This document shows, one piece after another, positions 23,690 to 62,409 of a stretch of 64,000 nucleotides of DNA (positions are counted from its first letter, which is position 1; the number at the start of each line of letters is the position of its first letter). Below the pieces are notes generated by a model that worked only from the letters and a program-made list of their open reading frames with translations, was not told the origin of the DNA and did no database searches. The position numbers and the translations under genes were made by a program. Origin of the DNA: Isurus oxyrinchus (Eukaryota); assembly GCA_026770705.1 (NCBI GenBank), contig JANJGN010000020.1:9300001-9364000 (forward strand). Direction: 5' to 3'.

Positions 23690-24032
23690 TGGATTTACAG
23701 GACTTCCTGTTAAGTTGAAGAGCAGGCAGTCTGGCTGCTCTGCTTCACCAGGAAGGCTGTCACACCAGGTGTTTTAACACCGACAAAGCTGTATCAAAGA
23801 CTGTGGCCCTCAATTTCTATACCTTCAGGCCACTCGAGCATTGCAACATTGATAACGTTTAATCAACTTGTGGTGGACACAAGCTAACAAGTTCATGAAG
23901 GGACTCTTTGCCAAAGCAAGTAGCTTCATCTCCTCTATGGAGCCAAAGTAGGAAGACAGGCTCTGCCTTTGGTCAGGATTGTCCGTTTTCCCCAGGTGCA
24001 CAGTATCACTGACTGCACCCACACGGCCTTGT
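23690..24032 (+). mobile_element. Degenerate PIF/Harbinger transposase fragment
   Basis: Frameshifted peptides CFTRKAVT, KTVALNFY, GLFAKASSFIS and RIVRFPQVHSITDCTHTA (compare the Harbinger/HARBI1 motif GFPxVxGxIDCTHV). Confidence 0.7.
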
Positions 24033-25060: not shown

Positions 25061-25069
25061 ATGATAAAG

Positions 25070-26660: not shown

Positions 26661-26779
26661 CGTCAGTCAGTGGCGATCCCCTATCCGACTCTTCAGTCAT
26701 GGCAGGAGCCAGAGGAGGCGGTGAAATCATCTACAGCTTGGACAGACTGAAATATCCAGGAATCCCGTTGAGGCTGAGC

Positions 26780-27560
26780 AGACTCCACAGCCTCTCCCGG
26801 CGTTGGGAGAGGGCTCCGGGCTGGAGAATTTCTGCCGTCCACGGAGAGGGAAGGGGGATTTCCCCCCCTCCCCTCCCCTCCCAATCTCTGCGAAGGTGGC
26901 TGAGGGGCCTCCACCTCTTCCTCTTTCACTCACCCTGAGCTCGGCCTCTCCCGGCCCGCCGGGCCCGGGCTGGAGGGGACAAACCTTGAAGACTGAACCC
27001 GGGCCCGAGGCCCAGCTCGGCTCCCCGCACGGTGCCCATGGGGCGGGCACATTCCGGCGGTTACACTCCGTGCATCAGCTGCCCGGCTCTGCTCCTCGCT
27101 CGGCCCCAGTAACTAACCCGCGGGCGGGCGGGACGGGGGTGGGGGAGGGGGCGGCCAGAGGCCACAGCCAGGGCCTGAGGATGGGGCCAAACACAGACGC
27201 CGCCAACACACTTCCGGTCCGGTTGCCCGGGTGACCCTCCACAGTTTCCTAAATGTACCGGGAGGGGACTGTCACTCACCGTTACGTCACCATCACAATG
27301 GGGCGGAAACCTGCCCCGTAACCCCGCCCCCTCCACTGGTCCACGTCCTTCCATGAGCCCCGTCCCTAACCCCCATGGTCCCGCCCAACGACCGGCCCCG
27401 CCCCGCGCTGGCCTCGCCCCTCCCCTGGATACGCGCGTTCATTGGCCCCGCCCTTAATTAGCCCCGCCCTCTAGTGACCCCACCGCATCACCGCCCCTCC
27501 ACAAACAACCGCCCCCCCCCCGGGATGACATTTTTTCCCGCCTGTTAATCGGCGACCCTT
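26780..27560 (-). promoter_or_regulatory. PARP11: CpG island / PARP11 promoter and non-coding first exon
   Basis: Sharp GC/CpG enrichment. ETS motif CACTTCCGGT at 27209-27218, CRE-like TTACGTCA at 27282-27289, several CCCCGCCC GC boxes at 27322-27470, and ATTGG (CCAAT on minus) at 27441. Minus-strand donor G|GTGAGT after 26934. Confidence 0.8.
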
Positions 27561-37929: not shown

Positions 37930-38005
37930 ATGCTGTGCACCAGTGGTGTGACCCTGGCGCTGTTTTTCTCTGCAGTCGCGTTAAAAGGAGTCCAGGAACC
38001 TAGAG
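37930..38005 (+). CDS. ZP gene exon 1 (signal peptide)
   Basis: Reads MLCTSGVTLALFFSAVALKGVQEPR; donor G|GTAAAT; local CpG enrichment at about 37.9-38.5 kb. Confidence 0.65.
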
Positions 38006-41000: not shown

Positions 41001-44000
41001 AGGTTCACAGACTCCCAGGACACATGCCCTTTTTGCGGTCTTGTGGAGTCCGTGGACCATGCATATATAGGGTGTGGTAGGCTGCACTCCCTTTTTAGTT
41101 ATTTGAAAAACCTTTTATTGATGTTTTGTTAGCACTTCAGCCCCACGCTCCTGATCTATGGGCACCCGGTGCGGAAGGGAGTCGGGAAGGAGGAGGACCT
41201 CCTCGCGAACCTGCTCCTGGGCCTGGCCAAGTTGGCCATTAACAGGTCCAGGCAGCGGGCGATCGACGGGGGAGTCCCGCCCGATTGTTTTTCCCTCTTC
41301 CGCGGCTACGTTCGTGGCCGGATGTCCCTGGAAAGGGAGCACGTGGTGTCTGCTAGCACTCTCGATGCCTTCCGTGCCAGGTGGGCACCGCGGGGACTGG
41401 GGTGTTTTATTGACCCCTTTAATCACATTTTGGTTTGAAGTTGTAAGTTTCCTTTAAATTTTGTCTTTAGTTTTACAGCTGACCTGAATTAGGGGCTGTG
41501 CTTGATTTGTCCTCATTTTGTTGATTTGGTTTAATTGGTTTAACCTGAAAGATTATTGGCAAGGCTAGCATTTGTTGCCTGTCCTTAATTACCCTTGAAC
41601 TGAGTAGCTTGTTCAGCCATTCCAGAGGGTAGTTAAGAATCAACTACATTGCTGTGTCTGGAGTCACATGTAGGCAGATTTCCTTCCCTAATTATTAATG
41701 AACTAGATAGGTTTGTAACACCAATTGATGATAGTTGTCATGGTTACTATAACTAGCTTTCAATTCCAGATTTTATTAATTGAATTTACATTCCACTTGC
41801 TGCCATTGGTGGGATTTGAACCCATGTCCCCAGGGCAATTGTACTGGGCGTCTAGATTATTAGTCCAGTGATATTACCACTACACCATCTTCCCCTCTGC
41901 CACCTGTTTGCCCATTCCACCAACTCATCTCTTTCTGAAGTATTTTACAGCCCTCCCTCTGTTTGCCAAACCTCCTACTTTTATGGCTACTTTTTTTGGT
42001 ATTGCGTTCTCCTTACTCAACTTCAAATGTTGTATCTGTGTACAGAACAAATAGATCCAGCAGTGACTCCTGGAGTGTACCACTTCCAATCCTCCTGCAA
42101 TTTGTGTGCCACCTATTTCCCCTAACCCTTTGGGATGCAGTGTTCAGCTTGAGTGTGGGTGTAAATTGGGTAGTAGTGGATCTGTTACATGTCCTGTGAT
42201 TTTTTTTTGTTGCTGACATGGGTTGAGAGTGTATGCCAGATGCCTGTCACACTCTCCCCTGTTTTGTATCTCCCTGAAATTGAAAGCTCTAGTATTTGTT
42301 TCGTATCCAATCTGTTACATTTCCTCTTGGACCATGTGCCTGCCTTGCATTCATGTAGGTCCCTTTTATCAAGAAGAAATCTGGCGGAGCTTCACAGATA
42401 AGAAAATAAGCCTCCTTTCAGGCACCTTATCAAATGTCTTGCTTCTAGAGCTGAGAATGGTAACTGTTGTAATGATGATGGTTACAGAACATGTCTGTTA
42501 AGGAAGTCTTCATAATCTTCTATATGTTAACAGCAAGTCTTTATTACTTGTACTACTTGCAACTATGTACACATACACAGTAAAGGGTACAGGTAAGGGT
42601 ACAGGTAAGGAGCTATCTCCATGTCTCAGCCTTAACATGTCTCTGCTCAACACAACACTGACCCTAGGTCTGGGTCATGTGCTGCCTTATATTGATGTGT
42701 GGGCAGTACTGTACTCAGTCCCACATTAACCCTGTGTATACCAGACCCGATACTACAGTAATTGTTACTGTAGTAACTTTTTGTAGTAGCTATCTTTTCA
42801 CACACACAAACTGAGAAAACCTCTCTTCAATGTTTTATTTGTTGGATGCTGCAAAATAAATGCCCTTTATAAAAGTACTCTTTTTGTCTTTTTTAAAGGG
42901 ACAGAATCAGAAACTTGTGGTGTTATCTCACTTTGCTGGGAAATTACATCAAGTGTAACGTCTGAGAGGTAAATATATTACAGGATGATCTACATCAGTA
43001 GATTGAAACAGATGGAGACCTCCAGGAATCAAGCTGTCCATGAAACTGCATTGCAGCAACAATTAGGTTATCAAGTCATCAGATGATTCAGAAGACGTAA
43101 TGTGCCAAATTATTCTAAAGATCTTTACTAAAAGAATGATAGTAATGTGTATTAGATCTAATTTAATTACCATGCGATCTCTGGCTAGCCCAGTGAGATT
43201 CAAACTTTATTCCTATTTCTGACTTGGTACTTTTTCACCATTTATCACTGTTTCTCCACTGTCGTGGGTCAAAATCCTGGAACTCCCCTCATAACAACAC
43301 TGTGGGAGCAACTTCAGGGGATGTCAGTGGTTCATGGAGGGTCACCACCACCTTCCCAGGGGTTGGGGGGGGGGGGGGGTGCAAGTAGGGATGGGTAATA
43401 AATGCTGGCCTTGCTGATATCCCAACTTTTCCCCAGAAATTCAGTAATTGTTTTGACCAACTGGTGTTGCTCTTGTTGTTTGGTAAAAATGTTTCTTTGC
43501 TTTGTGGTTCCAGTAGAAAGCTTTATTTAAACAGCAACAACATTCTTGAGGCTGAAAGAGTAAGAAAATCTGGCTCTTGGTTTCTGGAACCGAGGACACA
43601 GCACACCCTCCAGTATTCACAAGGGAACAAGTCATCTACTTGGAGGATCTACACCATGTGTATGTGAATATTAATAATGCTGCTTTCTTCAAAGTTTTCC
43701 CTGCTCTGAACAGCCTGTGCTTTGCTAATGAATAATGGCTTGCTTTGTCTGTGCCTTGGGGTCACCAGCGTATGGGTGCATGGAGGAAGATCATGCAAAG
43801 AGTATTGCGGACCAATAACCGTGCCTGTTGAATCTTCCATCTATTTACAATGAATGGATGGGACATTGGATAGCTGCCATCACTGGGCTACAATCCTCCC
43901 TGCCCAGTTTTCTTCCAGATGGTCAACCCAAGACCATAAACAGGAAATTTTCCCCCATGATTTTGATTGACAACAACTTGCATTTGTATAGCACTGTACT

Positions 44001-47000
44001 GTAGTAGCACATCCCAAGGTACTTCACAGGAGTGTTATCCTGAGTTATTGGGATGGGTGATCAAAATGTTGGAGAAAGAGATAGGTTTAAAGAAGCACCT
44101 TAAAGGAAGAGACAGAGGGAGGAGAGAGAGAGAGAGAGAGACGAAGTTTACGGTGAGAGTTCCAAGCTTGCATGGGGCCTAGATAACTGGAGGCACGGCT
44201 GCCAATGATAATCTTTTAAATGAAAACCAAATCAACAAAATCGGGATAAATCAGGCACAGCCCCTAATTCAGGTCAGCTGTAAAACGGCTGCCAATGATG
44301 GGGTAATGATGCACAGGAGGCCAGAATTAAAGGAGTGCAGAGATTTCTTAAGTGTTTTAGGACTGGGGGAAATTAGAGGTGAAAGCGAGAGATTGTGGGA
44401 GGGATTTGAAAGCCAAGGTGAGAAGTTTAAGTGGAGCATTTCTGGACCTGGAAGCAATGTAGGTCAGCAGATGCATGGATGATAGGTGATTGGGACTTGG
44501 TGTGAGCTAGGTGTTGGACAGCAGCATTTTTTGAGCCCAGGTTTACACCAGCCAATTGCATGTACAGTGCCACCTTTCTATCATTGAGATTTGTACAGTC
44601 CTGAGGTCCTTCATCTGATTTGCTGTTCTGTGGAACTTTTCTTTCTGGGCATTGGCTGCTGTGTTTGACAATGTTGGTTAAGTCCCACCACTGACAAGCT
44701 GTGGATATCACAGGAAATTGCCTACATTGGACAAATTGAGCTAACCATTTACCACAGGAGTCACTTTTTAGCAAAGCATCGCTTCTAAATAGTTGGTGCA
44801 TTGACTGTTTCAAGCAGTTCACTAAGTATTTCGCCCATAATTTTTCAAATTTTCTACTGATTTCGAGCAAAGATCAGACCTTTGAGCAGTTTCAACCAGC
44901 TCATTAAAGTGCAATTAACTCAGTGACGAGATTCTGGGTGTCACTGTCAACAATTAGGCAGTTGCTAAGTGGAGCTTTCCTGTTTTTTTTTTTATTAAAG
45001 ATGTCGGCTATTTTGCTCTTTTGGGTTTACCACCCACAGCAGTATCATGGGGAAATTGTGTTAACCCCATCATGCCTGCTATAAATGGTTGGGGTATACT
45101 TGAAAACTGGCTGTGAATCCTTCTGGGACATCCTGAAGTTGGGATGAGGCAATCTCTAAATGATTAGAAGGCACTTTCTTGAGCCTTAATCCATTTCCTG
45201 GCTTGAACTGAAGGAAAATAATTCTGTTCTTTCCTGAAACATGGTGGATAATTTTAAGGAAAGGGATTGTATAGAATCTACAGCACAGAAATGGGTCATT
45301 CACCCCAACTGCTCTATGCTGGTCTTTATGATCCACACAAGCCTTCCTTGTATCATGCTCTCACTTTTTCAGAGCCACTTCATCCAATTCAGGGTTACAG
45401 GGAATGGGAGCCTAGCCCAACAGGCAATGGGTGCTAGGCAGGGTGCACCCAGGATAGGACCCCAATCGATCACAGGGTGCACACAGAGGGACAATTTACT
45501 GTCGCTAATCCACCTAACATGTACATCTTTGAATGGTGGGAGGAAACCGAAGCACCTGGTGGAAACTCTCACAGACGCTGGGAGGACATGCAAACTCCAC
45601 ACAGACAGACCACCAGAGGTCAGGATTGAACCTGGGTCCCTGGAGCTGTGAGGCAGCAGCGCTAACCACTGCGCCATTGTGCTGCTGCCTTGTCTTACTC
45701 TATCAACATAATCTAAGTGCAAAAATGATTAGACATAGCCATGTCAAAGCTGCAGTTTCTTTTAATGTTAAAAATTTTGCAAATAAATGTTTTTTTTTCC
45801 CTTTTTATAATGACATTGAGGTCCTCCACACCTACAAGTGGCGTCCTTAAATGGAAGTGGTGCAGAAATGGCCCTCATGCATTCAGCTAACTTGGTAAGT
45901 GGTAAGCTTTTGAATGTATTGGGAGTTGGATCGTATGAGATGGGTTTCCCACTTTAATCCAGGCTTTAATGACTTGTGATCAATGCTGCCTTTCTTTTCT
46001 TTTTAGAAAATGGAAGACTCTGAACTAAGTTTCCAGTTCCAAAGGAACGTTAGACTGGGCTGTCAGGGAGAACTGCTTTACTTCTCCGAGGCAGATGGTG
46101 TAGCTCTGGCATTAGGTGTGATATATACTTTCCTTAAAATCTTTAAAAGCTGAAAAGAGAGACATGTTGTCAAAGTTTTTCATCTTGCACTCATCAGGAC
46201 AAATGCAAGAATGCCAAATTTCAAAAGATCACAACAACTTATACTACAGGCGAAGAGGCTGCTGATTGGTTGGCAATTTGACTCTGATTGGCAAGGTGTT
46301 ACCATAGAGAAAGTGACAGGGGCTCTATAGGCTCCCCAAGCTCCCAGTTCAAAAAAGGTGCAGGGCTTGAACATTTTCCTCCTGTTTGCAGAGAAGGAAT
46401 CCCTGGGTATGGATGTATGTCGCTTCTAGCAAGCCTAATTGAGCCACATTACGAGCTTGACTGATCGTTTGAAACTTGGCATTCTTGCATTTGTCCAGAT
46501 GAGTGCACAAGATGAAAAGCTTCAGCAAGATTCACATTCTGTACTACCCAAGTGACTCTTTTTAAAAGAAAAACATTGTGGATGCTGGAAATGTAAAATA
46601 AGTACAGAAAATACTTGAAAGCCTTCAGGTCAGCAGCATGTGTGGAGAGAGAAACAGTTAATGTTTTAGCTTGATGAACTTTTTATCAAAACCTTTTTGA
46701 AATATATAAATATGTTTGCGATTTAACTATGGCGTTCCAGCATCTGTCAAATTGTTTATGGCTTTTTCAAGGAGAAAATGTCCAATAGTTTGTTTTTTCG
46801 CTGACCATTAAAACTAACCATTAAAATTGATTCAATCTTAACAGTTCTTGCCAATCAATTCCCCTTGAAGATCAGTACAGTTAACACGTCTCTGAGTCTC
46901 TCCTGGGATTTCAGAGACTGTTTCCTTAAGGATTCTCTCTGCACCCTTCTATTGTCTGATGAGGATGGCAACAACTTACCTCAAGTGATTGTTCAAGACC

Positions 47001-50000
47001 AGAACCATGAAACCACGGGCCTAATGCCATGTAAACGCTACATGGCATGTTTGAATATTGCAGGACAACATGATATCTGTGCTGCGACCAAAACAGGTAG
47101 TGTACTCATTCTTGATGAGCTTCCCAGTTATCTACATGTTTAAAAAATCTTGCACTTCTTGTCCACAAACCTGCTGTGTCACTACGCTTGCCATTTTAAA
47201 GTTAGGTCAACAATTTTACCATGTCAACTGTCACACTTTATTTCAGGCTCTAGCCACTGGGTGGTGCTGTGGAGTAACGTTTCTGAAACTTCCCTCCCAA
47301 CTTTGCCACCATCTATAAACATGTATTCAGACAAACCATGGGCAACATCATGCACAATTTTAAAGTTTAGTCTAATAACTTGGCAAACAAAGTTTACTTA
47401 ATTGCATGAGTGATGTTTGTACCAAACTGGATAGAATAGAATTGGCCTGAGTGGTTAAACCTTCAGAATATAATATTTCGGACAGATTGATAGATGGTAA
47501 TATTTGTCATACTTTATTAGGATTTATTCAGAATAAGGGTGTGAAGTGATTAAGTTCTCTAGCGATTTTATCAGAAATGAGAATCTCCAGAGACCTGTGT
47601 ATCCGTGAACCCTAGATGTCCACCCTTGTTTTGAGAGACCCAGTTTCCCTCTGCGTAGCCCACATGGCTTGTAGAATTCCAAAATCCACTGCCTTGTTTT
47701 GTCTGCAGCTCCCAAATTGGCCAGTTACTCATGGTAGACTATGCTAACCCTGAACTCAGGAATTCCATGTTGTTTGATCACTGTATTAGCATCACAGCTG
47801 GGACAGATGTCTTCTCTCACCTAGACAGAAACATCCCTCCATTTGATTGTTCTGCACAGACAAAGATTTTTAATCCTTTCCTAGTATATGGTACCTACAT
47901 TCTAAGTATCTGTGAAGCAATCCTTCAGTACTGATTATCTTCCAGAGTTTCTCCTTTTCAGTGAAATTGAATAATATTCCAATCAAATCAGTAACTTTTT
48001 AAGCAGGCTCATTAATGTATTTTCTAATATTGATTTCAACTGAAAATAAGTAGATGACTAGCTGCAACACTGGTGGTGAACAAAAGGTCATCACTCCACC
48101 AGACACATTTCTGAAAAATTATCTCTACAAATTGATAGATTCTCAAGAAGCAAAGTATCTATTTTGTGGTCTTTCCCAACAATGTACCATCCAGAGCCAC
48201 GGGGGAAGAGAATGGGATTAGTGTCTGCTCTAGAAAAGGGTTGACAGACTGTAATTGTGGTGTTCAATTGCTTTGTTTAGTTATGAGAGTCTGTTTATTA
48301 TTAATGCTCACTGCGCTTGAATGGTTAAGCATGGGTGTGGACCCAGAGAAAAGTAAACGAAGCATGGAGCAGACATTTTAAAAGCACTGTGAACAAAACC
48401 TATTGCACACTTGAAACTGTGCAACGATGACACTAGTTTCTGAGAGATAAAATATACAATAGCAATGGGCTGAATGGCCTATTTTGTGCCATGAACATCC
48501 ATGGTTTGACTCACATCAAAGCTCAGAATCTTCCACTGTACTAGTATAATTTTTTTTATATCTCACCAATGACCTGAGCACATTTTTTTCACCTCTGGCC
48601 AATTTGCAGCTACTTCCATGCCATGATGATATGATAACCAGGCATTGAATTTCAACTGGTTACATGCTACTTACAAAGGAGTTGCAGCTGATTCAGAGAA
48701 GATGTGATCCTAATATGCCAATCAGAACCCAAATTTCAGAGGCATTAAAAATTTAATTATAGAAAATGTTAATCTTCAAGGACTAAGAACATTCTGGAAG
48801 AGTTTGTTTTTAACGCTCTGTTCCTTAAAGGGTTAATGCAAGAACTCTATCTTCCAAGAAATGCATCCATTTACAAGAAAAGGTAATTAAGCAGTTTTAA
48901 AGAAGCTGGGAACCTCTTGACCCTGGTGGACTGTGTACAAAAGGGGTCACGTGGTAGCTTATGGCTCTGAATGCCTGGAACTATTTCAAAAGTGGGTTTT
49001 TGTTGCTCTTTGAGAAGGAGGACAAACTGCTTGAGAAGGAAGATGGCAGCCTGTTTGCAGTCCAGAGTCGGTCCACAGCCAGAAGTGAATATAAGCTTCT
49101 TCTAAGTTGCTCCATGTGCTGGAATTGAGTACCTGCAGGTGATCCTTGAGTCTGCCTGAAAAGCAATGTAGCAGTCATTGATTGTTTTGCAGATCAGCAC
49201 TGGGAGACCAACCACGTAACCCAGATGTTATTTCAAGGAACGCACGCCTGATCAAAGCAAAGAATTGACCCAGATTCGCCAGAAATGTTTTGGCAAAATG
49301 TTGTTGCATTTTTTGAATTCGGCATGCAAGGTTTCCAGTCTAATAAAAGTCCCTCTTATCTTCCTTGTTTTGTTGGAGTTTGCTTTCCATTGGAGTGTAA
49401 TTGTTGCCTGAAGAGTTGAATGAAACAAGATTTAAATGCTGACCATATAACCACATTAACTCCTTCAGCAGCAGCAGTGTGTGTACCATCTACAAGATGC
49501 ACTGCAGAAATACACACAGTAGCAGCAGTGTGCACCATCTACAAATGCACTGCAGAAATACACACAGTAGCAGCAGTGTGTGCACCATCTACAAGATGCA
49601 CTGCAGAAATACACACAGTGGCTGCAGTGTGTGCACCATCTACAAGATGCACTGCAGAAATACACACAGTAGCAGCAGTGTGTGCACCATCTACAAGATG
49701 CACTGCAGAAATACACACAGTAGCAGCAGTGTGTCCACACCATCTACAAGATGCACTGCAGAAATTCACCAAGGCTCCTTCGACAGCACCTTCCAAACCC
49801 ACTACCACCTAGAAGGACAAGAGCAGCAGATAGATGGAACACCAGCACCTGCAAGTTCCCCCTCCACGTCATTCACCATTCTGACTTGGAAATAAATCGC
49901 CGTTTCTTCACTGTCGCTGGGTCAAAATCCTGGAACTCCCTCCCTAACAGCACTGTGGGTGTACCTACACCACATGGACTGCAGCGGTTCAAGAAGGCAG

Positions 50001-53000: not shown

Positions 53001-56000
53001 GCCAAAAGATAAGTCCATTGGCACTGCGCCATCTAGAAACCCAGCTGTCCTGCAGCGATGATATGCTAAGAGCAGCCTTAATTATTTGAGTGAATTGTTT
53101 CCGCTCTCATCTGGGAGGAAGTCTGACTCTAGAAAGCTGCCGGTCAATCTGATTGGCTGACAGCTCTGTCGTCCCAGCAACGCCAGATGTCCACGGTTGG
53201 GCCTCCAGCCAGACCCCGAGGAAATGTCATGGATCTTGAACTTCAGGTAAGTCTGGGGATTTTGGATGAGCCTGCCTGGCACACCCCAGTGAGGGTAGTG
53301 GGGCGGGAGGGGGGGGGGGGCGTGTTTTAGTTGCCGAGGGGATGGTTAAAGGTGGGGTATGATCTTGTTGAGATTGGGGTGTGCCTCTGGACACAGAGGA
53401 CCCCAAAATGAGGTATACTCCCTTCCTGCCCAACAGCAGCCCTTGCAATGGAAGCTTCCGGACTGCCCATCCTACCTCCGCCTTTTCCCCACTTTGGATA
53501 GAATAGGGCAGAGGCAGAATGAGTCCCTTTAAGTAGCAGTTAATTGGCCATCTGAGGGCCCCAATAGGCCCAAGGGTATGTGAGGGTGGATTCCTGGTCA
53601 CTGGGGAATTGCGTTGGACACTGCATCCAATGAGTGAGTTGGGTTCAACCTAGATAATGCTGGTTGTATGTTCAGCTAGATACATTTGGAATTAGAATTG
53701 CACGAGCAATTATTAAACATGGATCCTTTATTCACTCTCTTCCTAACTGACTCCCTCTGCTGGTAAATGTGTGTATGGTAGTCTCAAGTGGACAAAAATG
53801 CACAATGCAATTTTCAATACACTATATAGTAGAGGAATACTGTTACTTCTGTCAAGTAGAGAGAATTAATTCAGGCTAAATGGGGTATTGGTCTTCTAGA
53901 ACTTGACTATATTATGGGACTTTGATTGATTAATTGTTTCTCCCTTGCCAGCGCCAGAGGTACTCACTAACCTGTCCTACCAGCACACTGTTGACGGAGG
54001 CTTTTTCTCCTGGAATTCCCCACCAGTATTTCATGGGATTCATATCCGTATTGACAACAGAGTAATGGCTTTCACCAGGAAGAATTATTACCGAGCGTTG
54101 GGTTTGAACACCTGCACTCAGTATCAATATGTGTTTGAAGCAGCCTGTGGACGCTGGAGGAGTAAAGCTGTCACCAGGGCTGAGTTCACAGGTATTCTAA
54201 CACCATTGCAAAACTTCAAATCCATGGTGTGGAAATCACTTTTTAACTGGTATCGGGAAGGAAAAAATGCACTCCTAGAATTATGGAATCAAAGAATAGT
54301 GCAGCACTGAATGAGGCCATTCAGCCTATCCATTCTGTACCAGCTCTCTCAAGGACAATCCAGTTAGTCCCCCTCCTCTCCTTATCCCTGAAATGTTCTT
54401 TCCAAGTATTTTATCCAATTTCCTTCAGGGAGGACTATTTAATCTGCTTCCACCATCCTCTTGAGCAGAGTATTCCAAAACATAACCACTTGTTGCATAA
54501 ATACATTTCTCCACATTGTCCTCTACCATTCACCACCTTTAAATCTCCATCTTCTGGTGATCGATCCTTCAGCCAATGAAAACGAGCTTCTCTTTATTTA
54601 CCCTGTCTAATCCCTTCATTATTTTAAATGCCTCCATCAAAACTCCTCCTCTGGCCTTCTCCTCCTCTTGAGAACAACCCCAACTTCTCCAGTCTATCCA
54701 AGTAACTGCAAATCCCTCACCCCTGGAACCAATAATATTACAGTCTTCATGACCTCAGGACATCCCAAGGTGCTTTACAGCCAATGAACTATTTTTTTTG
54801 AAGTGCGATCCCTGTTGTAAAGTAAGAAAAAGCAGCCAATCTGTACACAGCAAGATCCCACAGATGGCTCTTTCCCACCCACCTAACCCCAAAATCAGAC
54901 TTCTTGACATGTATAGCCTTGCCGCAAGAGGATGCCACAAGGACAGCACTAGTTTGGTCTGTGATGGTTCCTATAATTCAATAGCCTACTAATATATTGG
55001 GGGAGGCGATGGCACAGTGGTATTGTCGCTGGACTAGACCCAGGGTAATCCTCTGGGGAAGCTGAATTCGAATCCCACCACATCAGATAGTGGAATTTGA
55101 ATTCAATAAAAATTTGGAATTAAAAGTCTAATGATCATGAAACCATTGCTGTGAAAACCCATCTGGATCACTAATGTCCTTTAGGGAAGGGAATCTGCTA
55201 TCCTTACCTAGTCAGGCCTAAATGTGACTGACTCTTAAATGCCCTCTGAACTATGGGGCAACTAGGGATGGCCAGCAAATCCCACATCCCATGAACAAAT
55301 TAAAGAAAAATTGAAAGAAAACAGCTTTTTTTCTGTGCAAGTATTTCTCAGACTAAGAGACACAGATTTAAAGTTTTGGGCAAGAGATACAAAGGGTGAG
55401 GAGGTAATGATCGGGAGTTCGCTGCCCATGAGGGGTGTGGAAGTAGACACTATGAATGATTTCAAGAGGAAACTGGATGGACACTTGAAAGAAATATACT
55501 TGCATGGCTACAGGGATAGAGCAGGGCGAATGGGACTGACTGGATTGCTCTACAGAGAGCCGGCATGGACTTAATTGGGCTTATTGACCTCTTTCTGTGC
55601 TATAATGATTCTGTTATCACCTGAGATAGGGTCAGGAGATGGAAAGAAACTAAAATTCTTGAGCAAACTAGCACAAATGTGCTGGGTTGGAGTGTCTGCA
55701 TTTTAACAAATCAGTAAGTTTTGGCTCCTTTTTGAATTCTTTAGGCTGTCCTATAGAACGTCCACCCCATGATCATAAGCGCGTTATAGTGCTGCCAGAA
55801 AAATTACACGTACCCATTTACCTTCCATGGAAGTTTTCCGATTATATGAGTGATCCAACTTCAAGAGCGTATGTAAAACTGGCATCCATTGCCAAATCCA
55901 AGGTAAGATTTAAATGAGCACTAAACATGGCGAGACCTTGGAGAGGGAGCAACATAGATTTACTAGGATGAGTGAGGGGGCTTCAGTTATGTGGTGAGAT

Positions 56001-59000
56001 GAGATTGAAGAAATTGGGTATGGGGTCCCCTTGGAGCAGAGAAGGGAGGATTCAATAGACCCTCAAAATTATATGAAGGGTTTTGATAGTCAATATGGAG
56101 AATCTGCACCCAGTGGCAGAAAGGTCAGAGGGCACAGATTTAAGGTGATTGACAAAAGAACCAGAAGGGTGGAGATGAAGGAAAAGCTTTTTTTTCCTTC
56201 TTAGTGAGTTGAAAGGGTGGTGGAAGCAGATTCAATAGTAACTTTCAAAAGGGAATTTAATAAATAATTGAAAAATTAAAAACTTGCTGGGAGAGGAAGA
56301 GTGGGGTGATGAGGGGAATGGGTCCATAATTTGAATAGTTCTTTTAAAGAGCTGGCACAGTTACAATGGATTGTATGGCTTCCCTTTTTTATTGTGTCGT
56401 TCTATAACCAGTCTTTTGTATCTGGAGAATGAATTAGAACTTGACCATTCCCTTCAATGTTTCAAGGAACTTGGATAAATTTGGGGTGAGGGTGTAGAAT
56501 GTGAATGAAGACATTGAAAGGTACGGGTTGCTGCTTTAAGTGTGAGGTATGCATGAAGTACTCTGACCCATCCATCTCCTCCCGTTGAAGGGTTCTCAAA
56601 ATTCCCACATTTTTCATTTCATCAACAAGGATATGACTTTTGGACTTTTAAACTGCTGAGTTAAGTGTAAAACTCTGCAGACAGGTGGCTGGGCCCATGA
56701 AGGCCTGGAACTGGACATGCCCGGGCTTGTTGAGTGCTGTGTGGGTTTTTTTTTTGCCTGAAACCAGACGACGAGAGGAGACAATACACATTCTTCACTT
56801 TTAAGACAATCAACACGAAACTAAAGCCCATCAAAATCTTGCATAAATAATCGCTACTAACTTCTAAGGCAGGAAGGCACAATCAATGCAATTATGCGAA
56901 CCCATGAATACTCCACACATACAATGGCTTTCAGTTCAAACCTAGTTAGGGGGGCAGGAAGACAATGATAAACATCATGCGAGCCCATTAAAAACAACGA
57001 GACAACAATCACCGGGGGAAGCCCACCAAAATCAAACAAAGAACTAACCTTGATTTGGATTCCAATAAGAAATTCGAAAGACAGTATAACTGGCCAGTCA
57101 GTTACGAAGGAGGGAGAGCGAAACCAGCTAGCTGGAGGGTGGCCAGTTTTGAAATGGTTGAAACAGAGATTAAGCAAGGAGATCTGGAGGGTTCGCAGGC
57201 ACGCAAGCAACATCACGGCGAGGGGCACAGGGTGGCAGGCTCAACTGAAGACAACAAGGCCACAGCAGCCCCCCATGAAGATCGACCACCCACAACCGTG
57301 TCCTCCACTCAACTGAAGAACCTTCGCAGATTCCACAGACCAGGACCACGTGGAGACGGCTGGCCCCAGAGGGCATAAAGAGCGTACCCCAAAGCTGCAA
57401 CCGGCTTACTTGGCTGGATTTTGAACTGTCAAGGAACCCTGAGTTGGTGAGCATGATCCCTGACCTCTCCTAGTTCAATTTAGTTAGGTTTTGGGGGTGG
57501 GACAAAGGTAAGGGGATTAGTAGTGTGATTTTCCCTCGTTATGCCATGTGATCCCCATTATTAACTAAGTGTACTTTGTAAGTCTGTATAATCTCAGTGT
57601 AATCCTAATGTTATAAGTTCATTTGTGACTTCAATAAACTCAGTTTTTTTTCTTGCAACAAAACCAATTGTCTGCTGCACTTTGTCACAACCCCCAAATA
57701 AGTCCAAGGTCTAGAACCCAGGGAGTGGGAGCGATTCGAACAGCTCAGGCATCAGAGGTGAAACTGACATACACCACTGCCCCCTACACCATGTACAATT
57801 TGAATTTGTAATGCACGCGTTTGTGTGTTAACCTTGCAGATTCTACAGTTCCTGCATTCTGGACAATTCTCTGGTGCGGAAGTAGAGATGTTGTATCTGA
57901 TGAAAAGCAACAACATGGTTGAGATGAATGTAGCAGTAGCTGCCCAACTCAGTAATAAAACTTTCTCAAGTCTCATACGCCTTCAGACTGACTTGAATGA
58001 TTCTAACGTGTCGACCATGGGCAGTGCACTCTTCTGGAACGGTGAGGAGACAATTCCTTCTCTCTCATTTTTAAAATCCTCTAACTCTTTAACCAAGCTT
58101 TTAATCAGCCGTCCAAATAACAGTATCTCCTCCTTTTGGCTTGGTGTCTGATTTTACATTTTAGAATATTTTCCTACGTTAAAGATGTCAATTCAAATTT
58201 ATCGTAAACACATTTGGCTGCATTCTTGATCTGTGATGGATTGTCCCACCCGTTTGGATTCCTTTGTCACATTCACATTATATTCACTAACTGGATCTTA
58301 ACTTTTAAAACCACAGTATCTATGTGTTGCAGATGAGGATGAATGTGCAAATGCTACTATTAATGACTGCCCAGTGGAATCAGACTGCATCAATACTTTT
58401 GATTCATTCACGTGCATCTGTCACCAAGGATACTTTGAAACCACTGATCCAGGGAGAGCTTGTAGAGGTATGGTTCCCTTATTTTGTCGATGTGAAATTG
58501 AAACCCTAAAGTAGATGACTTACCATTTTAGTTTGAATGCTATCGAATTCGCTAAAATCTCAAATCATAAGTTATATTCGTGCCGGGCAATGACTATCTC
58601 CAACAAGAGAGAATCTAACCTTTGATGTTCAATAGCATTACCATCACTGAATCCCCCCAGTACCAACATCCTGGGGGTTACCATTGACCAGAAACTGAAC
58701 TAGCCATATAAATACTGTGGCTGCAAGAACAGGTCAGAGGCTAGGAAACCTGTGGCAAATAACTCACTCCCTGACTCCCCAAAGTCTGTCCACCATCCAC
58801 AAGGCACAAGTCAGGAGTGTATTGGAAGACTCTCCACTTGCCTGGATGAGTGCAGCTCCAACAACACTCAAAGCTTGACACCATCAGGACAAAGCAGTCC
58901 ATTTGGCATCCCATCCACCACCTTCAACATTCACTCTCTCCACCACCAACACACAGTGGCAGTGTGTACCATCTGCATTGCAGCAACTCACCAAGGCTCA

Positions 59001-62000
59001 TTAGACAGCACCTTCTAAACCCATGACCACAACCACCTAGAAGGACAAGGGCAGCAGATAGATGGGAACATCACCACCTGGAAGTTCCCCTCCAAGTCAC
59101 TCACCATCCTGACTTGGAAATATATCACCGTTCCTTCACTGTCACTGGGTCAAAATCCTGGAACTCCCTCCCTAACAGCACTGTGGGTGCACCTACACCA
59201 CATGGACTGCAGCGGTTCAAAAAGGCGGCTCATCACCACCTACTTGAGGGCAATTAGGGATGGGCAATAAATGCTGGCCTAACCAATGACGCCCACATCC
59301 CATGAATGACTAAAAATAATAGAAAGTCATGTACAGCTTTGAACAACCTGCCATTAATAATTGATGCATTAGAGAAGAGATGGTGATTTTATTTTGCTCT
59401 TTGGGAGTGGGGTGGTGGAGGGGCCTGGTGGTTAAGTTAAGATATTGTCAACTTTTTACCCCCATCTTGTTTTCTTCAAGATGTCAACTTGTTCTGGTGT
59501 ATAATTTTGTGTGGAAAGTCTCTGGATATCTTACCCGAATGGTCACTCCTCATATGCAAAACCAGAGAATGAGATAAAAACAGAAAATGCTGGAAATATT
59601 CAGCAGGTCAGGCAATGTCAGGTCTGACCTTCCATCAAATCGGAGGAAAGTTAGAAATGCAAGTGGGAGGGGGAGGAAGAACAGAAAGGTGGAGGGCAGA
59701 GAGACTAAATGGTGCAAAGGCCAAAGGGAGTGCTAATGGGACATGATGTGTCTAGAGGACTTGTGAATGGCAGGATAATGACCACCTCAAAGTAAAGGAA
59801 TAAAGAAAGAAACCAGAAAAAACCCACAAAATACCACAAAACAAAATTGGGTATGGACCAGATGGGCTGAATGGCCACCTTTGCTGTTGATTCAGTAAAA
59901 CGTAACCAGTGGAGTAACCAATACTACTGGACATTCTCAATGGTGCTGCAGCTGGATATAAAAATTGTAGGAAGGACAGTTTTCTTAGTCCATATGTGCA
60001 GTTTTGTAATAGGTGATGAGGGTGTGGCTGTGCATGCTTTCTGTTCCAGGGATTGGAATGTATTTTTTTTTTTTTGCCTCTGTAGATCACGGAGTGTTTG
60101 CCAGTTGTGAAACAGATTTAATGAAAATTATCGTGTCAAAAGAATTTCTGGCACATCAGGTGAAGTCACGACTGAATCTTGTCTTGAACGATGGCAGCTG
60201 TGCAGTCAGAGAAGGGCCAAAATACTACATGTTCACAATCACTGAACGGCAGGCTTACTGTGGAGGGCAGCTCCTGGTAAGAAAGAAAGATCTTTACACC
60301 CTGTTCAAAAACTTCCAAGGACATTTCGAGAGATACGTGATATGATTATCAAGACTGATTTGATCAAGGCTAATTGAATTTTGTAATAGCTTGAGCTGGA
60401 TATGGTTTTTATTTGTTTATGGGATTTATTGCCCATCCTTAATTGCCCTTGTTCAGAGGGTATTTAAGAATGCTGGTGGGGGACATGTAGACAGATTCCC
60501 TTCCCTTAGGGGCATTAGTTTTTGTGACAATCAACAATGGTTTTGTGGGCATCGTCAGACTTTTAATGAATTTAAATTTCACCATGTGCTGTGGTGGGAT
60601 TCGAACCCTGGTACCCAGAGCAATACCCAGGTCTCTGGAACACCAGTCCAGTGACAATACCACTCTGCCACTGCCTGCCCCTGTGCAAAAAAAACCCAAT
60701 TTTTTTTTTTTACTTCAATAAAAACTCTAGTAGAATTAAACTGGTAAAGTTTGGGTAAATATAAGTAAAATTAAAACTGGTAACAGTGAAGTCTCAACTT
60801 TATTTAAAACACCAACAGATTAAAATACTATTTTGTCACTTTCTCTAGATAAATGAGACACACAAAATATTTAAGCACGTCATCACTAATGAGTTCCGTT
60901 CTGATTCTTCCATAATCAGAGAAGAGCCACTAATATTTGAAGTGAACTGTGCCTATTTACGTAGCTCCTTAGTGAAAATGTCCCTGGAAGTGCCCCCACT
61001 CATCAGGTAAATGTAATCTTTACTCTTTAAACTTGTAAGTCTGGTAAATGTAATGATAATCACCTATTGGTCGCCAAGAGTGCAGAGAGAAGAGAGAATG
61101 ATGAGGTGAATGAAAACTATAAAGATAATTTTGTTTCTGTATTGTTTTATGTGGAGCAGACCACTCAACGTGGTCTGGCAATCGATAAGCTTTTTTACCA
61201 AGGGAAGAGACTATGGGAACTTTTATAACATGTATGTTTTAGCGATCATACAGAATGTAAAGTTAGTTTTAAATAGATTGGGGTTGCATTGCCTGCATGA
61301 GTTAGCTCTTCAGCTACTTTTGTCTGGACTGATTTGGAGAACAGGAAGTCCAAATTCGAATCATAGAATGATATAACACAGAAGAGGCCATTTGGCCCAT
61401 TGTGCCAGTGCTGGCTGTTTCAGTGTTGGCCATAGATCAGTTGGTAGCACTCTCACCTGCTGAGTCAGAAGGTTGGGGGTTCAAGGCCCACTCCACTCCA
61501 GAGACTTGAGTGCCAAAAATCAAGGCTGAAAACCCAGTGCCAATAGAGGTCCTGAACTGTCGGAGGGGTCATCTTTCAGATGAGAGGTTAAAATAATGTT
61601 TAATCTCCGGTGGCTGTAAAAGGTTCCACGTTGACTATTTTGAAGAAGAGTAGGGGGGGGTTCTCCCCAGTGTCCTGGCCTATATTTTTCCCACAATTAA
61701 CATCACTAAAAACAGATTATTTGGCTATCACGCTGTGGTTTGTGAGAGCCTGGTGTGTGCAAATTGCCAGCTGCATTTCTTACATTACAACAGTAAGTGT
61801 ACTTCATTGGCAATGAGACATCCTTAAGTCATGAAAAGTGCCTTTTATAGGTGCAAGCCCCTGATTTTCTTTCCACATGAGCTGCCACCCACCCTACTTC
61901 AGCTAGCTCTCAACACGTTCCTTTCTCCCTTGTTTATCCAGCTTCCCCTTAAATACATCTATACTATTCACCCCAACTGCTCCCTATGGACAGTGAGTTC

Positions 62001-62409
62001 CATATGTTAAACATTTTCTCTTGAATTCCCGATTGGATTTATTAGCGGCTGCCAAATATTTATGGCCCACAAGTTATTATTTGTGGTCTGTCTTAGAGAG
62101 AAATTACAAATCCATAACCCTTCACTACTGATGTTTTATTCTTCTTCTTTTCTGAAGGATGTTTAAGCCCGTAGTGCAGTACAATAAGGAGAACCTCCAT
62201 CTCACTATGTCTCTCTACAAGAATGGTACTTTCACACCCGAGGCAGCTTATGGAGCAAGTCCAGCTATGTGGCTTAATGATGACCTCTATTTGGAAGTCA
62301 AAGCGCCCGGGAGCTTTGAGGCTGCGTTTGTTCTGCAAGTAACTTCCTGCTGGGCTACAACAACCCCTGATCCTCAAGGAAAGCAAAAGTTCCACTTCCT
62401 TCAAGATGG
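37930..62409 (+). CDS. Uromodulin/UMODL1-like ZP-domain glycoprotein (SP - FN3 repeats - SEA - cbEGF - ZP), 3'-incomplete in this window
   Basis: 15 exons with compatible phases: 37930-38005, 42899-42968, 43514-43659, 45821-45894, 46007-46115, 46845-47096, 50171-50467, 52164-52415, 53952-54191, 55745-55902, 57840-58041, 58333-58467, 60086-60276, 60849-61006, 62158-62409. Total 2612 nt with no stops. The first five exons are less certain. Confidence 0.85.
39484..39712. repeat. Near-perfect inverted repeat with ~95-bp arms (Penelope terminus-derived), carrying a hammerhead-like motif at 39579-39617 (+)
   Basis: AAAATCAGAATTACCTGGAAAAACTCAGCAGGTCCGGCAGCATCAGCGGAGAAGAAAAGAGTTGACGTTTCGAG is mirrored almost exactly downstream. 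Confidence 0.9.
39952..41551 (+). mobile_element. Tx1/L1-clade LINE, 5'-truncated, relatively young
   Basis: ORFs 40016-40987 (DFFWDKRLHWV, LPLREGGQAL), 40794-41132 (DLGWRVLH, CPFCGLVESVDHAYIGC zinc knuckle) and 41169-41438; CpG-rich; TSD ATCATTGGCAA / ATTATTGGCAA. Confidence 0.9.
41552..41895 (-). mobile_element. tRNA-derived SINE (host of the Tx1 insertion)
   Basis: Antisense tRNA-like head (GGTGGGATTTGAACCC...TAGTCCAGTGATATTACCACTA); same family as 55000-55300 and 60410-60670. Confidence 0.75.
42899..42968 (+). CDS. ZP gene exon 2
   Basis: Polypyrimidine tract and TTTAAAG| acceptor; reads GTESETCGVISLCWEITSSVTSE; donor AG|GTAAAT; phase 1 to 2. Confidence 0.6.
43514..43659 (+). CDS. ZP gene exon 3 (divergent FN3-like)
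   Basis: Acceptor TTCCAG|; reads SRKLYLNSNNILE...FLEPRTQHTLQYSQGNKSSTWRIYTM; donor T|GTATGT; phase 2 to 1. Confidence 0.6.
45368..45680 (-). mobile_element. V-domain SINE (HE1-like)
   Basis: Minus strand reads GGCGCAGTGGTTAGCGCTGCTGCCTCACAGC...GGTTCAATCC...TGTGTGGAGTTTGCATGTCCTCCC...GGTTTCCTCCCAC. Confidence 0.8.
45821..45894 (+). CDS. ZP gene exon 4
   Basis: Reads CPPHLQVASLNGSGAEMALMHSANL; donor |GTAAGT; phase 1 to 0; the acceptor is a rarer GAG. Confidence 0.55.
46007..46115 (+). CDS. ZP gene exon 5
   Basis: Strong acceptor TTTCTTTTCTTTTTAG; only phase 0 is open, reading KMEDSELSFQFQRNVRLGCQGELLYFSEADGVALAL; donor G|GTGTG. Confidence 0.65.
46148..46530. mobile_element. Inverted-repeat element of a second Penelope-type family, with a hammerhead-like motif in each arm
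   Basis: CATCTTGCACTCATCAGGACAAATGCAAGAATGCCAAATTTCAAA is mirrored by TTTGAAACTTGGCATTCTTGCATTTGTCCAGATGAGTGCACAAGATG. Confidence 0.7.
46167..46202 (-). ncRNA. Minimal type I hammerhead-ribozyme-like motif
   Basis: Minus strand reads TTGTC CTGATGA GT-GCAAG-AT GAAA AACT TT GACAA, with a 5-bp stem I. The mirror copy at 46491-46528 (+) retains the palindromic AAGCTT stem III and UUC triplet. Confidence 0.55.
46845..47096 (+). CDS. ZP gene exon 6 (FN3)
   Basis: Acceptor TTAACAG|; reads VLANQFPLKISTVNTSLSLSWDF...TTGLMPCKRYMACLNIAGQHDICAATKT; donor G|GTAGTG; phase 1-1. Confidence 0.85.
49465..49765. repeat. ~51-bp tandem repeat (about 6 copies) at the 5' end of a LINE fragment
   Basis: Unit CACAGTAGCAGCAGTGTGTGCACCATCTACAAGATGCACTGCAGAAATACA. 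Confidence 0.9.
49465..50070 (+). mobile_element. Non-LTR retrotransposon 3' end with A-rich tail
   Basis: Reads FTVAGSKSWNSLPNSTVG...LQRFKKAA; same family as 58580-59310 and 43240-43430. Confidence 0.8.
50171..50467 (+). CDS. ZP gene exon 7 (FN3)
   Basis: Reads DPMPPSNLTIITWSANSVTIYWDKP...SFLIDGLPSCQKVNISLVTVC...ANT; donor G|GTATGC. Confidence 0.93.
51020..51312. repeat. Inverted triplication (direct-inverted-direct) of a ~65-bp unique segment
   Basis: Core at 51028-51092 (+), 51127-51191 (inverted) and 51229-51293 (+), nearly identical. Confidence 0.9.
51620..52055 (+). mobile_element. Deu-domain SINE
   Basis: Same family as 7345-7830. Confidence 0.75.
52164..52415 (+). CDS. ZP gene exon 8 (FN3)
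   Basis: Reads APVKFVKVTQ...YTVSWAV...YVSTGLKPCTLETLTLKAVC...VAT; donor G|GTGGGT. Confidence 0.92.
53070..53610. mobile_element. GC-rich non-autonomous DNA transposon remnant
   Basis: Shares motifs with 10945-11540 and 3186-3807 (TCTGATTGGCTGACAG, TTAATTGGCC). Confidence 0.45.
53952..54191 (+). CDS. ZP gene exon 9 (FN3)
   Basis: Reads APEVLTNLSYQHTVDGGFFSWNSP...YRALGLNTCTQYQYVFEAAC...EFT; donor G|GTATTC. Confidence 0.92.
55000..55300 (+). mobile_element. tRNA-derived SINE
   Basis: Head GGCACAGTGGTATTGTCGCTGGACTAG...TTCGAATCCCACCAC; tail CCCACATCCCATGAA is shared with the 58580-59310 LINE. Confidence 0.75.
55745..55902 (+). CDS. ZP gene exon 10 (SEA domain N-half)
   Basis: Reads GCPIERPP...WKFSDYMSDPTSRAYVKLASIAKSK; donor |GTAAGA; matches the SEA-type F..xL.DP.S..Y..L pattern. 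Confidence 0.88.
56657..57747 (+). mobile_element. Probable solo LTR
   Basis: About 1.1 kb CpG-richer insert with TGAG...CTCA ends and AATAAA at about 57633; no clear TSD. Confidence 0.45.
57840..58041 (+). CDS. ZP gene exon 11 (SEA domain C-half)
   Basis: Acceptor TTGCAG|; reads ILQFLHSGQFSGAEVEMLYLMKSNNMVEMNVAV...SALFWN; donor G|GTGAGG. Confidence 0.85.
58333..58467 (+). CDS. ZP gene exon 12 (calcium-binding EGF)
   Basis: Reads DEDECANATINDCPVESDCINTFDSFTCICHQGYFETTDPGRACR: 6 Cys and the D-x-D-E-C / C-x-N-x4-F-x-C cbEGF signature. Confidence 0.95.
58580..59312 (+). mobile_element. Non-LTR retrotransposon 3' part
   Basis: Reads NILGVTIDQKLN and SKSWNSLPNSTVG; tail GGGCAATAAATGCTGGCC...CCCACATCCCATGAATGA. 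Confidence 0.85.
60086..60276 (+). CDS. ZP gene exon 13 (ZP-N start)
   Basis: Reads DHGVFASCETDLMKIIVSKEFL...LNDGSC...YCGGQLL; donor |GTAAGA; contains ZP-N Cys1-3. Confidence 0.93.
60410..60670 (-). mobile_element. tRNA-derived SINE
   Basis: Antisense head GGTGGGATTCGAACCC...AGTCCAGTGACAATACCACT. Confidence 0.75.
60849..61006 (+). CDS. ZP gene exon 14 (ZP-N end)
   Basis: Reads INETHKIFKHVITNE...IIREEPLIFEVNCAYLRSSLV...; donor AG|GTAAAT; contains ZP-N Cys4 (CxY). Confidence 0.93.
61425..61860 (+). mobile_element. Deu-domain SINE
   Basis: Same family as 7345-7830. Confidence 0.75.
62158..62409 (+). CDS. ZP gene exon 15 (ZP-C start)
   Basis: Reads LHLTMSLYKNGTF (internal hydrophobic patch-like)...LYLEV...FVLQVTSCWATTTPDP...FHFLQDG; donor |GTGAGG. 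Confidence 0.94.

What the first reader, a model, noticed from the sequence alone, without database searches (positions are those of the whole stretch)
37930..62409. ZP-domain gene with a tandem FN3 array, SEA and cbEGF but no EMI/WAP, head to head with PARP11
Seen: 15 phase-compatible, stop-free exons encoding a signal peptide, two divergent N-terminal modules, four clear phase-1/1 FN3 exons, one SEA, one cbEGF, a 4-Cys ZP-N and the start of ZP-C, with many N-glycosylation sequons. Known: UMOD/GP2 have EGF-D8C-ZP, and UMODL1 has EMI-WAP-EGF-FN3-SEA...-ZP; neither matches this order. As I recall, the human interval upstream of PARP11 (towards CCND2) has no such gene. Inference: this is a distinct ZP-family paralogue, possibly a filament-forming epithelial or mucus protein kept in cartilaginous fish and lost in mammals.
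Basis: partly seen in the sequence, partly recalled or inferred. Interest (0 to 1): 0.75.

Follow-up and report, generated by a model that had tools for sequence, protein, structure and literature searches.

The report
Overlooked fish uromodulin-like filament gene family
This shark gene is real and spliced, and belongs to an unnamed family found from lamprey to sharks, bony fish and salamanders (no frog, bird or mammal copy turned up); it likely makes a membrane protein that is cut loose and polymerises into sugar-coated filaments on a wet epithelial surface, as human uromodulin does in urine.

Summary
The 15-exon, 870-aa model is real: all introns GT-AG, no stops, 95% identical to a basking-shark protein and 79% to a 1023-aa catshark protein. 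RNA-type contigs follow the exon edges. The neighbour is PARP11, about 10 kb away on the other strand. No EMI/WAP exon was found. The gene is already in NCBI: as 'uncharacterized' in most species, and as 'zona pellucida glycoprotein d' in two sharks. That name looks wrong. Its ZP module groups with full-length relatives in rays, chimaera, bichir, sturgeon, gar, teleosts, salamanders and lamprey (SH-aLRT 97-98), apart from true ZPD and UMODL1; placing the cartilaginous-fish copies with either was rejected. Relatives keep the uromodulin polymerisation residues, a basic cleavage site, the EHP and a transmembrane anchor, so a shed ZP filament with FN3 arms is likely. A new paralogue of a known kind, moderate interest.

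The parts
37930..38005 (+). Exon 1, start codon and predicted signal peptide (aa 1-26)
   Evidence: most hydrophobic 19-mer of the model is at aa 1; matches Cetorhinus P0213. Outside the stretch laid with RNA.
42899..42968 (+). Exon 2, first half of module N1 (degenerate FN3-like)
   Evidence: family N1 profile E 1e-5
43514..43659 (+). Exon 3, second half of N1; tandem acceptor 43514/43517
   Evidence: (E 6.5e-21); N1 vs unrelated FN3 score 17.6, best shuffle 14.2 of 30
45821..45894 (+). Exon 4, first part of module N2 (no known family)
   Evidence: contig length arithmetic E4+E5 = 181 nt; weak profile hit alone (E 0.34)
46007..46115 (+). Exon 5, second part of N2 with an invariant Cys
   Evidence: (E 3.7e-11)
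46845..47096 (+). Exon 6, FN3 repeat 1 (phase 1/1)
   Evidence: RNA-type contig pieces 46843-47093 in X1 and X2
48610..49409 (+). Alternative terminal exon after exon 6: stop after 5 codons, predicted 247-aa secreted form without ZP; AATAAA at 49342
   Evidence: X2 record 10 runs 46843-47093 then 48607-48899; X3 record 19 starts at 48607; contigs end at 49349-49409; translation
50171..50467 (+). Exon 7, FN3 repeat 2 (phase 1/1)
   Evidence: Pfam fn3 E 2.5e-4
52164..52415 (+). Exon 8, FN3 repeat 3 (phase 1/1)
   Evidence: Pfam fn3 E 0.012; contig pieces from 52161 in X1, X2, X3
53952..54191 (+). Exon 9, FN3 repeat 4 (cartilaginous-fish/salamander class)
   Evidence: X4 record 29 starts at 53949
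55745..55902 (+). Exon 10, first half of SEA-like domain
57840..58041 (+). Exon 11, second half of SEA-like domain; lacks the G-S-V-V self-cleavage loop
   Evidence: X3 record 23 piece 57838-58040
58333..58467 (+). Exon 12, calcium-binding EGF domain
   Evidence: Pfam EGF_CA E 2.5e-8, above cut-off
60086..60276 (+). Exon 13, first half of ZP-N (Cys 678, 709, 729); skipped in NCBI's 350-aa white-shark model
   Evidence: Pfam ZP-N E 0.0013; present in X1, X2, X3 contigs; skip shown
60849..61006 (+). Exon 14, second half of ZP-N (N736 sequon, fg-loop Arg758, Cys768) and interdomain linker
62158..62409 (+). Exon 15, IHP and first half of ZP-C; the gene continues beyond the window
   Evidence: Pfam ZP-C E 3.7e-12; 100% to P0001; contig pieces 62156-62409 in X1, X2
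8402..27300 (-). Neighbouring PARP11 gene (WWE then PARP catalytic exons; 5' end inferred at the CpG island)
   Evidence: PARP E 3e-13; exons near 22900, 18800, 15170, 10810, 10650, 8890, 8700; 2DK6 match; 5' end inferred from CpG o/e 0.67 and a donor-like site at 27274

Best explanation
The gene encodes a ZP-module glycoprotein of an unnamed vertebrate family (signal peptide, two N-terminal modules, four FN3, SEA-like, calcium-binding EGF, ZP) that is likely anchored in an epithelial membrane, likely cut at a basic site just after ZP-C, and predicted to polymerise into uromodulin-type filaments with the FN3 arm projecting as a glycosylated side branch. Shown: exon structure, splicing of most junctions, domain order, family membership, conservation of the polymerisation residues; the cleavage site, EHP and transmembrane helix lie beyond the window and are shown in database proteins of the same gene and its relatives. 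Inferred from uromodulin and ZPD: cleavage releases the EHP, the interdomain linker swaps into the neighbouring ZP-C, and a head-to-tail filament grows at the cell surface. Inferred only from anatomy and distribution: a barrier or gel on water-facing epithelia.
For: Best solved matches are the two known homopolymers, chicken ZPD (28YJ, 152 bits) and uromodulin (151 bits). In alignment A2 (32 rows) the Arg equal to UMOD R415 is kept in 28 of 28 rows with a residue, the first Phe of the FXF motif in 27 of 27, the D532 and T534 equivalents in 28 of 29 and 28 of 28 (T or S), the N396 sequon Asn in 28 of 29, and all ten ZP cysteines in at least 27 of 28 (mapping). R415A and an FXF deletion abolish UMOD polymerisation (PMC7737619, passages). 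A dibasic or R-x-x-R site between the last ZP-C Cys and the EHP-like strand is present in 26 of 28 rows. A 19-residue hydrophobic helix ends the white-shark and catshark proteins (mean hydropathy 2.3 and 2.6). One RNA-type contig spans SEA-EGF-ZP-N (X3 record 23).
Against: No tissue data and no experiment on any member was found. The second Phe of FXF is kept in only 13 of 27 rows. Both salamander proteins lack a basic site, and the white-shark database protein has only a dibasic pair, no R-x-x-R. The exon 9-10 junction (FN3 to SEA) was not bridged by 31 or more letters in any contig shown. A short ZP-less isoform exists, so part of the output cannot polymerise. Conserved ZP residues do not prove polymerisation.
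Confidence: 0.62

Rival explanations
1. It is an egg-coat protein, the long-armed counterpart of ZPD, as NCBI's name in two sharks implies.
For: NCBI name 'zona pellucida glycoprotein d' in Carcharodon and Heptranchias. Family ZP modules score higher on a ZPD profile than on a UMODL1 profile (e.g. 146 vs 102 bits). Whole family as sister of ZPD is not rejected (p-AU 0.55).
Against: Cartilaginous copies as orthologues of ZPD rejected (p-AU 2e-15). Teleosts hold both a short zpd (P0070, 400 aa) and this family. The white-shark name sits on a 350-aa model that skips exon 13 and starts out of frame.
Confidence: 0.13
2. It builds a sensory-organ gel (lateral-line cupula, olfactory or ampullary mucus), working like UMODL1/olfactorin or tectorins; its loss would track the loss of aquatic sense organs.
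For: Same FN3-SEA-EGF-ZP-TM tail as UMODL1, which is expressed in olfactory epithelium (PMC8874799, passages). All named members are from primarily aquatic vertebrates. Whole family as sister of UMODL1 not rejected (p-AU 0.45).
Against: No frog member was found although tadpoles have a lateral line (own knowledge); no expression data; distribution fits gills or skin as well. This differs from the best reading in site, not in polymer mechanism.
Confidence: 0.15
3. It stays in the membrane as a non-polymerising adhesion molecule or growth-factor co-receptor (betaglycan-like use of a ZP module), with the FN3 arm binding ligands and the short isoform acting as a decoy.
For: Transmembrane helix; salamander members without a basic site; secreted short isoform; tandem FN3 resembles receptor phosphatase and fibronectin arrays.
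Against: Betaglycan ZP-C scores only about 30 bits against 151-152 for UMOD and ZPD; fg-loop Arg and cleavage site are conserved across most of the family; cytoplasmic tail is short.
Confidence: 0.08
4. It is the shark UMODL1 orthologue with EMI/WAP exons missed or lost.
For: Shared tail order; the sturgeon member is named 'uromodulin-like 1' by its depositors.
Against: No EMI/WAP signal in the window or in 12 of 12 aligned members; p-AU 1.5e-4; separate Atlas clusters; zebrafish has its own umodl1 (PMC8874799).
Confidence: 0.02

Closest known systems
UMODL1 / olfactorin
   Same: Type I membrane ZP protein ending FN3-SEA-cbEGF-ZP-TM.
   Different: No EMI or WAP, one SEA-EGF unit instead of two, own N1/N2 modules, SEA lacks the G-S-V-V loop that UMODL1-clade SEA keeps; separate ZP group.
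ZPD (chicken, frog, teleost egg-coat protein; PDB 28YJ)
   Same: EGF directly before a six-Cys ZP-C module; best solved match; NCBI gives this name to the shark gene.
   Different: ZPD is about 400 aa with no FN3 or SEA; separate ZP group with its own teleost, lungfish and bird members.
Uromodulin (UMOD) and GP2
   Same: EGF-ZP core, N396-type sequon, fg-loop Arg, FXF, IHP/EHP, basic cleavage site.
   Different: No D8C domain (0 of 12); branch is FN3/SEA; anchor predicted transmembrane rather than GPI.
Tunicate SEA-EGF-ZP protein (Styela clava XP_039251318)
   Same: SEA-cbEGF-ZP cassette, suggesting the cassette is older than vertebrates.
   Different: No FN3; does not group with this family.

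Membership tests
Polymerising ZP-module proteins (UMOD/ZPD type) | ZP-N with four cysteines | tested here: met
   Window Cys 678, 709, 729, 768; 29-30 of 29-30 rows with a residue
Polymerising ZP-module proteins (UMOD/ZPD type) | Six-cysteine (type II) ZP-C | tested here: met
   First Cys in the window (851); all six in relatives, at least 27 of 28 per column; rest lies beyond the window
Polymerising ZP-module proteins (UMOD/ZPD type) | fg-loop Arg and FXF motif needed for polymerisation | tested here: met
   Arg 28 of 28; first Phe 27 of 27; second Phe only 13 of 27, otherwise I/M/V/L
Polymerising ZP-module proteins (UMOD/ZPD type) | Basic cleavage site, EHP and membrane anchor after ZP-C | tested here: met
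   Basic site 26 of 28, EHP-like strand in the same rows; hydrophobic helix in P0001 and P0010; all outside the window
Polymerising ZP-module proteins (UMOD/ZPD type) | Forms filaments | not testable with these tools
UMODL1 | N-terminal EMI and WAP domains | tested here: not met
   Best E 0.71 in six frames of the window, 22 control hits; no WAP or EMI in 12 of 12 members
UMODL1 | FN3-SEA-EGF-ZP-TM tail | tested here: met
   SEA assignment is below Pfam's cut-off
UMODL1 | ZP module falls in the UMODL1 group | tested here: not met
   p-AU 1.5e-4; sister relation of the whole family unresolved (p 0.45)
ZPD | Short EGF-ZP protein of about 400 aa | tested here: not met
   Family is about 1000 aa with FN3 and SEA
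ZPD | ZP module falls in the ZPD group | tested here: not met
   p-AU 2e-15; sister relation unresolved (p 0.55)
ZPD | Egg-coat component, ovary expression | not testable with these tools
   RNA runs carry no tissue record
ZPD | Conserved ZPD synteny | not tested
   No vertebrate genomes available; the synteny figures of PMC6262864 and PMC12155184 could not be seen
UMOD/GP2 | D8C domain | tested here: not met
   No D8C in 12 of 12 members at E up to 1, found in control proteins such as P0055
Self-cleaving SEA proteins (MUC1 type) | G-S-V-V cleavage loop (motif recalled) | tested here: not met
   Absent at the aligned position in 9 of 9 members printed; alignment to UMODL1-clade SEA

The most novel reading that the evidence does not exclude
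A third ancient branch of vertebrate ZP filament proteins, beside UMODL1 and ZPD, older than the lamprey-shark split, whose five-class FN3 arm was pruned differently in each lineage and which builds a so far unnamed water-facing gel or barrier (gill, skin, lateral line); it was lost with life on land, and egg-coat ZPD may be its armless sister.
Probability: 0.25. Interest if true: 0.62.

Novelty: new member of a known kind. Interest (0 to 1): 0.38.

Why it matters
Counts of vertebrate ZP genes centre on mammalian and egg-coat members. A conserved subfamily present in lamprey, cartilaginous and ray-finned fish and salamanders, with no paper found on it and with misleading database names (ZPD, UMODL1, GP2-like, uromodulin-like), gives a new candidate for fish surface or sensory matrices, a correction for ZPD orthology in sharks, and a marker for what was lost at the move to land. 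It is testable in a teleost model. It does not introduce a new mechanism.

Tried and rejected
No whole genome is held for this window, so synteny beyond PARP11 and the exons after 62409 could not be read; the tail was taken from database proteins. The bootstrapped tree did not finish; supports are SH-aLRT only. The RNA lay was swamped by repeats: the splice joints themselves were not among the 15 of 743 joints shown, so junctions are inferred from piece edges, lengths and matching depths; no listed holder is on record as RNA and tissue is not given. N2 matched nothing: Pfam's L-lectin hit (E 0.24) was rejected as chance; N2 vs FN3 or SEA under 1%. A missed fifth FN3 exon of the ray-finned class was sought in the window and not found (best E 0.69). 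Frog multi-ZP proteins that scored high (P0032, P0038) were rejected as members: they group with UMOD/GP2. The open frame at 47659-47931 was rejected as an exon: no family module matches it. The Atlas search of the PARP exon gave only generic PARP clusters. Ten literature searches, including six gene LOC ids and 'parp11'+'zpd', showed no paper describing the family in their listings; supplements of PMC6262864 (trees of the top 500 ZPD hits) could not be read and may contain members. Three look-ups of earlier scan notes returned nothing.
Full report
1. Observation. The product is 95.3% identical over 559 aa to a basking-shark protein, 78.9% to a 1023-aa catshark protein along its whole length, 53.8% to skate, 56.3% to chimaera and 28.9% to bichir. 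Exon 15 is 100% identical to NCBI's Carcharodon carcharias 'zona pellucida glycoprotein d', so the window is white shark or very close. Domain calls: cbEGF and ZP-C pass Pfam's cut-offs, ZP-N and two of four FN3 exons hit below cut-off; all four repeats match an unrelated FN3 set at 75-98%. The SEA call is weak (below cut-off in 5 of 6 shark relatives; HHalign 19.6 vs best shuffle 15.8 of 30). N1 is probably a degenerate FN3 (17.6 vs 14.2); N2 matches nothing. Sequons are 13 against 6.7 expected. The minus-strand neighbour is PARP11, with a likely start at the CpG island about 10 kb from this gene's ATG.

2. Transcription. I laid 4 of 15 listed runs (all 'RNA?' by guess, at most 3 samples, 2 studies) on 42700-62600. 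Repeats crowded out the joint table, but contig pieces stop at exon edges and lengths add up: X1 record 5 is exons 4+5 (181 nt), 6 and 238 nt more; X3 record 23 has 173 nt before exon 11 (exon 10 plus 17) and ends 87 nt into exon 13, exactly where its variant row says; X1 record 8 holds exons 13 and 15. So SEA, EGF and ZP-N share a contig and the FN3 exons are chained to each other; the exon 9-10 junction is not bridged in what was shown, and rests on single-frame models in the relatives. Depths are low (4-13) and intronic contigs of similar depth occur. X2 and X3 also show exon 6 joined to 48610, giving a predicted 247-aa secreted form without ZP.

3. What it is. A search of 1.84 billion representatives with the catshark protein gave 1112 hits, of which the best 150 were listed. 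By ZP profile 22 of 150 belong to this family, and one more has only the N-terminal arm. Named members: sharks, rays and chimaera, bichir, gar, mormyrid, shad, halibut, mudskipper, axolotl, sturgeon, newt and sea lamprey. The unnamed ones fall among gar and teleosts or look teleost-like (two fragments). No frog, reptile, bird, mammal, lungfish or coelacanth member was recognised; this is absence from a ranked list, not from genomes. The ESM Atlas has a 74-member cluster with only an automatic name, separate from two UMODL1 clusters and two ZPD clusters. In trees of 68 selected ZP modules (253 columns) the 17 family rows, lamprey included, are one side of a branch at SH-aLRT 98 (LG+G4) and 97 (mixture model); ZPD (bird, lungfish, teleost zpd) and UMODL1 (snake named; the rest by WAP/SEA content) form their own groups. 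Holding the cartilaginous copies with ZPD or with UMODL1 is rejected (p-AU 2e-15 and 1.5e-4), while the whole family as sister of either is not (0.55, 0.45). Caveats: groups were named after a first tree (160 modules, after dropping 7 isoform rows and three multi-ZP proteins), the tests used the simpler model, there is no bootstrap, and the lamprey row is long and compositionally odd, though it also matches chimaera from the SEA onward (E 5e-51). I did not show that sharks hold separate ZPD and UMODL1 genes. NCBI's white-shark 'ZPD' model equals exons 11-12-14-15 with exon 13 skipped and a start in another frame (195 of 196 residues); exon 13 is in the contigs, so that model is likely wrong or a minor form.

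4. The arm. FN3 repeats fall into five classes. Cartilaginous fish have 1, 2, 3, 4a; ray-finned fish 1, 2, 3, 4b; the salamander models carry 4a and 4b (newt repeats score 67 on the shark 4a profile and 53 on the ray-finned 4b profile, both built without them); lamprey repeats score best, weakly, on 3, 4a and 4b (only 81 columns, so the tree is coarse). The simplest reading is a five-repeat ancestor pruned by loss of phase-1/1 exons (inference). No EMI/WAP exon and no 4b exon was found in the window. UMODL1 does end in the same order: snake UMODL1 has FN3-SEA-EGF-ZP and an unnamed UMODL1-clade protein has five FN3 before SEA-EGF-ZP. A tunicate protein has SEA-EGF-ZP, so the cassette is old.

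5. How it likely works. In uromodulin, cleavage at a site after ZP-C releases the EHP strand, the interdomain linker replaces it in a neighbouring subunit, and the FXF motif pairs with the ZP-N fg loop; R415A or an FXF deletion abolishes filaments (PMC7737619, passages). Chicken ZPD forms the same kind of homopolymer (PMC13124595, passages). This family keeps the Arg (28 of 28), the first Phe (27 of 27), the pocket Asp and Thr/Ser, the N396 sequon and ten cysteines, a basic site before an EHP-like strand (26 of 28) and a transmembrane helix. Its best solved matches are ZPD and uromodulin. I therefore infer a membrane precursor shed by a furin- or hepsin-type protease into filaments carrying a roughly 630-residue N1-N2-FN3x4-SEA arm, with no SEA self-cleavage. 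Against: second Phe in 13 of 27, no basic site in both salamanders, only a dibasic pair in the white-shark protein, and no tissue or functional data. Site of action is a guess from the aquatic distribution. Rivals: sensory gel (0.15), egg coat (0.13), non-polymerising receptor (0.08), UMODL1 orthologue (0.02).

6. Literature. Seen as passages: PMC6262864 (ZPD groups with 'uromodulin-like' genes of reptiles, teleosts and chondrichthyans; supplement unreadable), PMC13124595, PMC7737619, PMC8874799, PMC12155184 (ZPD single copy in teleosts), PMC4475693, PMC13361971, PMC11788884, PMC5608299 (parp11 and ccnd2 blocks in alligator and human, no ZP gene named in the text; figure unseen), PMC4072675. 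All others as search listings only. That the human PARP11-CCND2 interval has no such coding gene is recalled, not tested. Ten searches showed no description of the family; the library lacks most subscription journals.

7. Verdict. A real gene, already predicted in databases but unnamed or misnamed, defining a distinct ancient ZP subfamily. It works, most likely, like uromodulin and ZPD; it is not a member of the UMODL1, ZPD or UMOD/GP2 orthologue groups by the tests run. New member of a known kind; interest 0.38.

Noticed in passing
window 48610-49409 (+): Alternative terminal exon seen in two RNA-type runs: predicted 247-aa secreted isoform with N1, N2 and one FN3 only, AATAAA at 49342.
   Followed up: partly
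window 55903-55917 (+): Reading through the exon 10 donor gives the same C-terminus as the 561-aa basking-shark model P0213, a second possible ZP-less form.
   Followed up: partly
P0001 vs window 57840-62409: NCBI's white-shark 'ZPD' protein skips exon 13 and begins in another frame; likely annotation error behind the name.
   Followed up: yes
P0032, P0038, P0054, P0041 (frog-named or unnamed): Proteins made of two to four tandem complete ZP modules with short linkers, grouping with UMOD/GP2; named from Mixophyes and Spea as uncharacterized. How such proteins would polymerise is an open question.
   Followed up: no
P0037, P0049, P0096 (unnamed): Large proteins with up to nine or ten tandem ZP modules; left out of the trees.
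   Followed up: no
P0025, P0033 (salamanders): EGF replaced by Thr/Ser-rich repeats and no basic cleavage site; gar and lamprey members have mucin-like inserts before the SEA.
   Followed up: partly
P0089 (unnamed, 1681 aa): UMODL1-clade protein with an extra ZP-C-like piece at the N-terminus, WAP and six FN3; may be a fused gene model.
   Followed up: no
window 40007-41454 (+): 326-codon open frame in intron 1, GC- and CpG-rich, that looks like the 3' part of a Tx1/L1-type retrotransposon (recalled); no Pfam hit.
   Followed up: partly
window 2-439 (-) and 25729-26109 (+): Reverse-transcriptase fragments (Pfam RVT_1 E 6e-25 and 2e-6), ordinary mobile elements.
   Followed up: partly
window 49466-49769: Six copies of a 51-bp unit inside a very abundant repeat also present near 58640-59300.
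   Followed up: no
window 51030-51320: Local duplicated and inverted segment of about 100-150 bp in intron 7, seen by eye.
   Followed up: no
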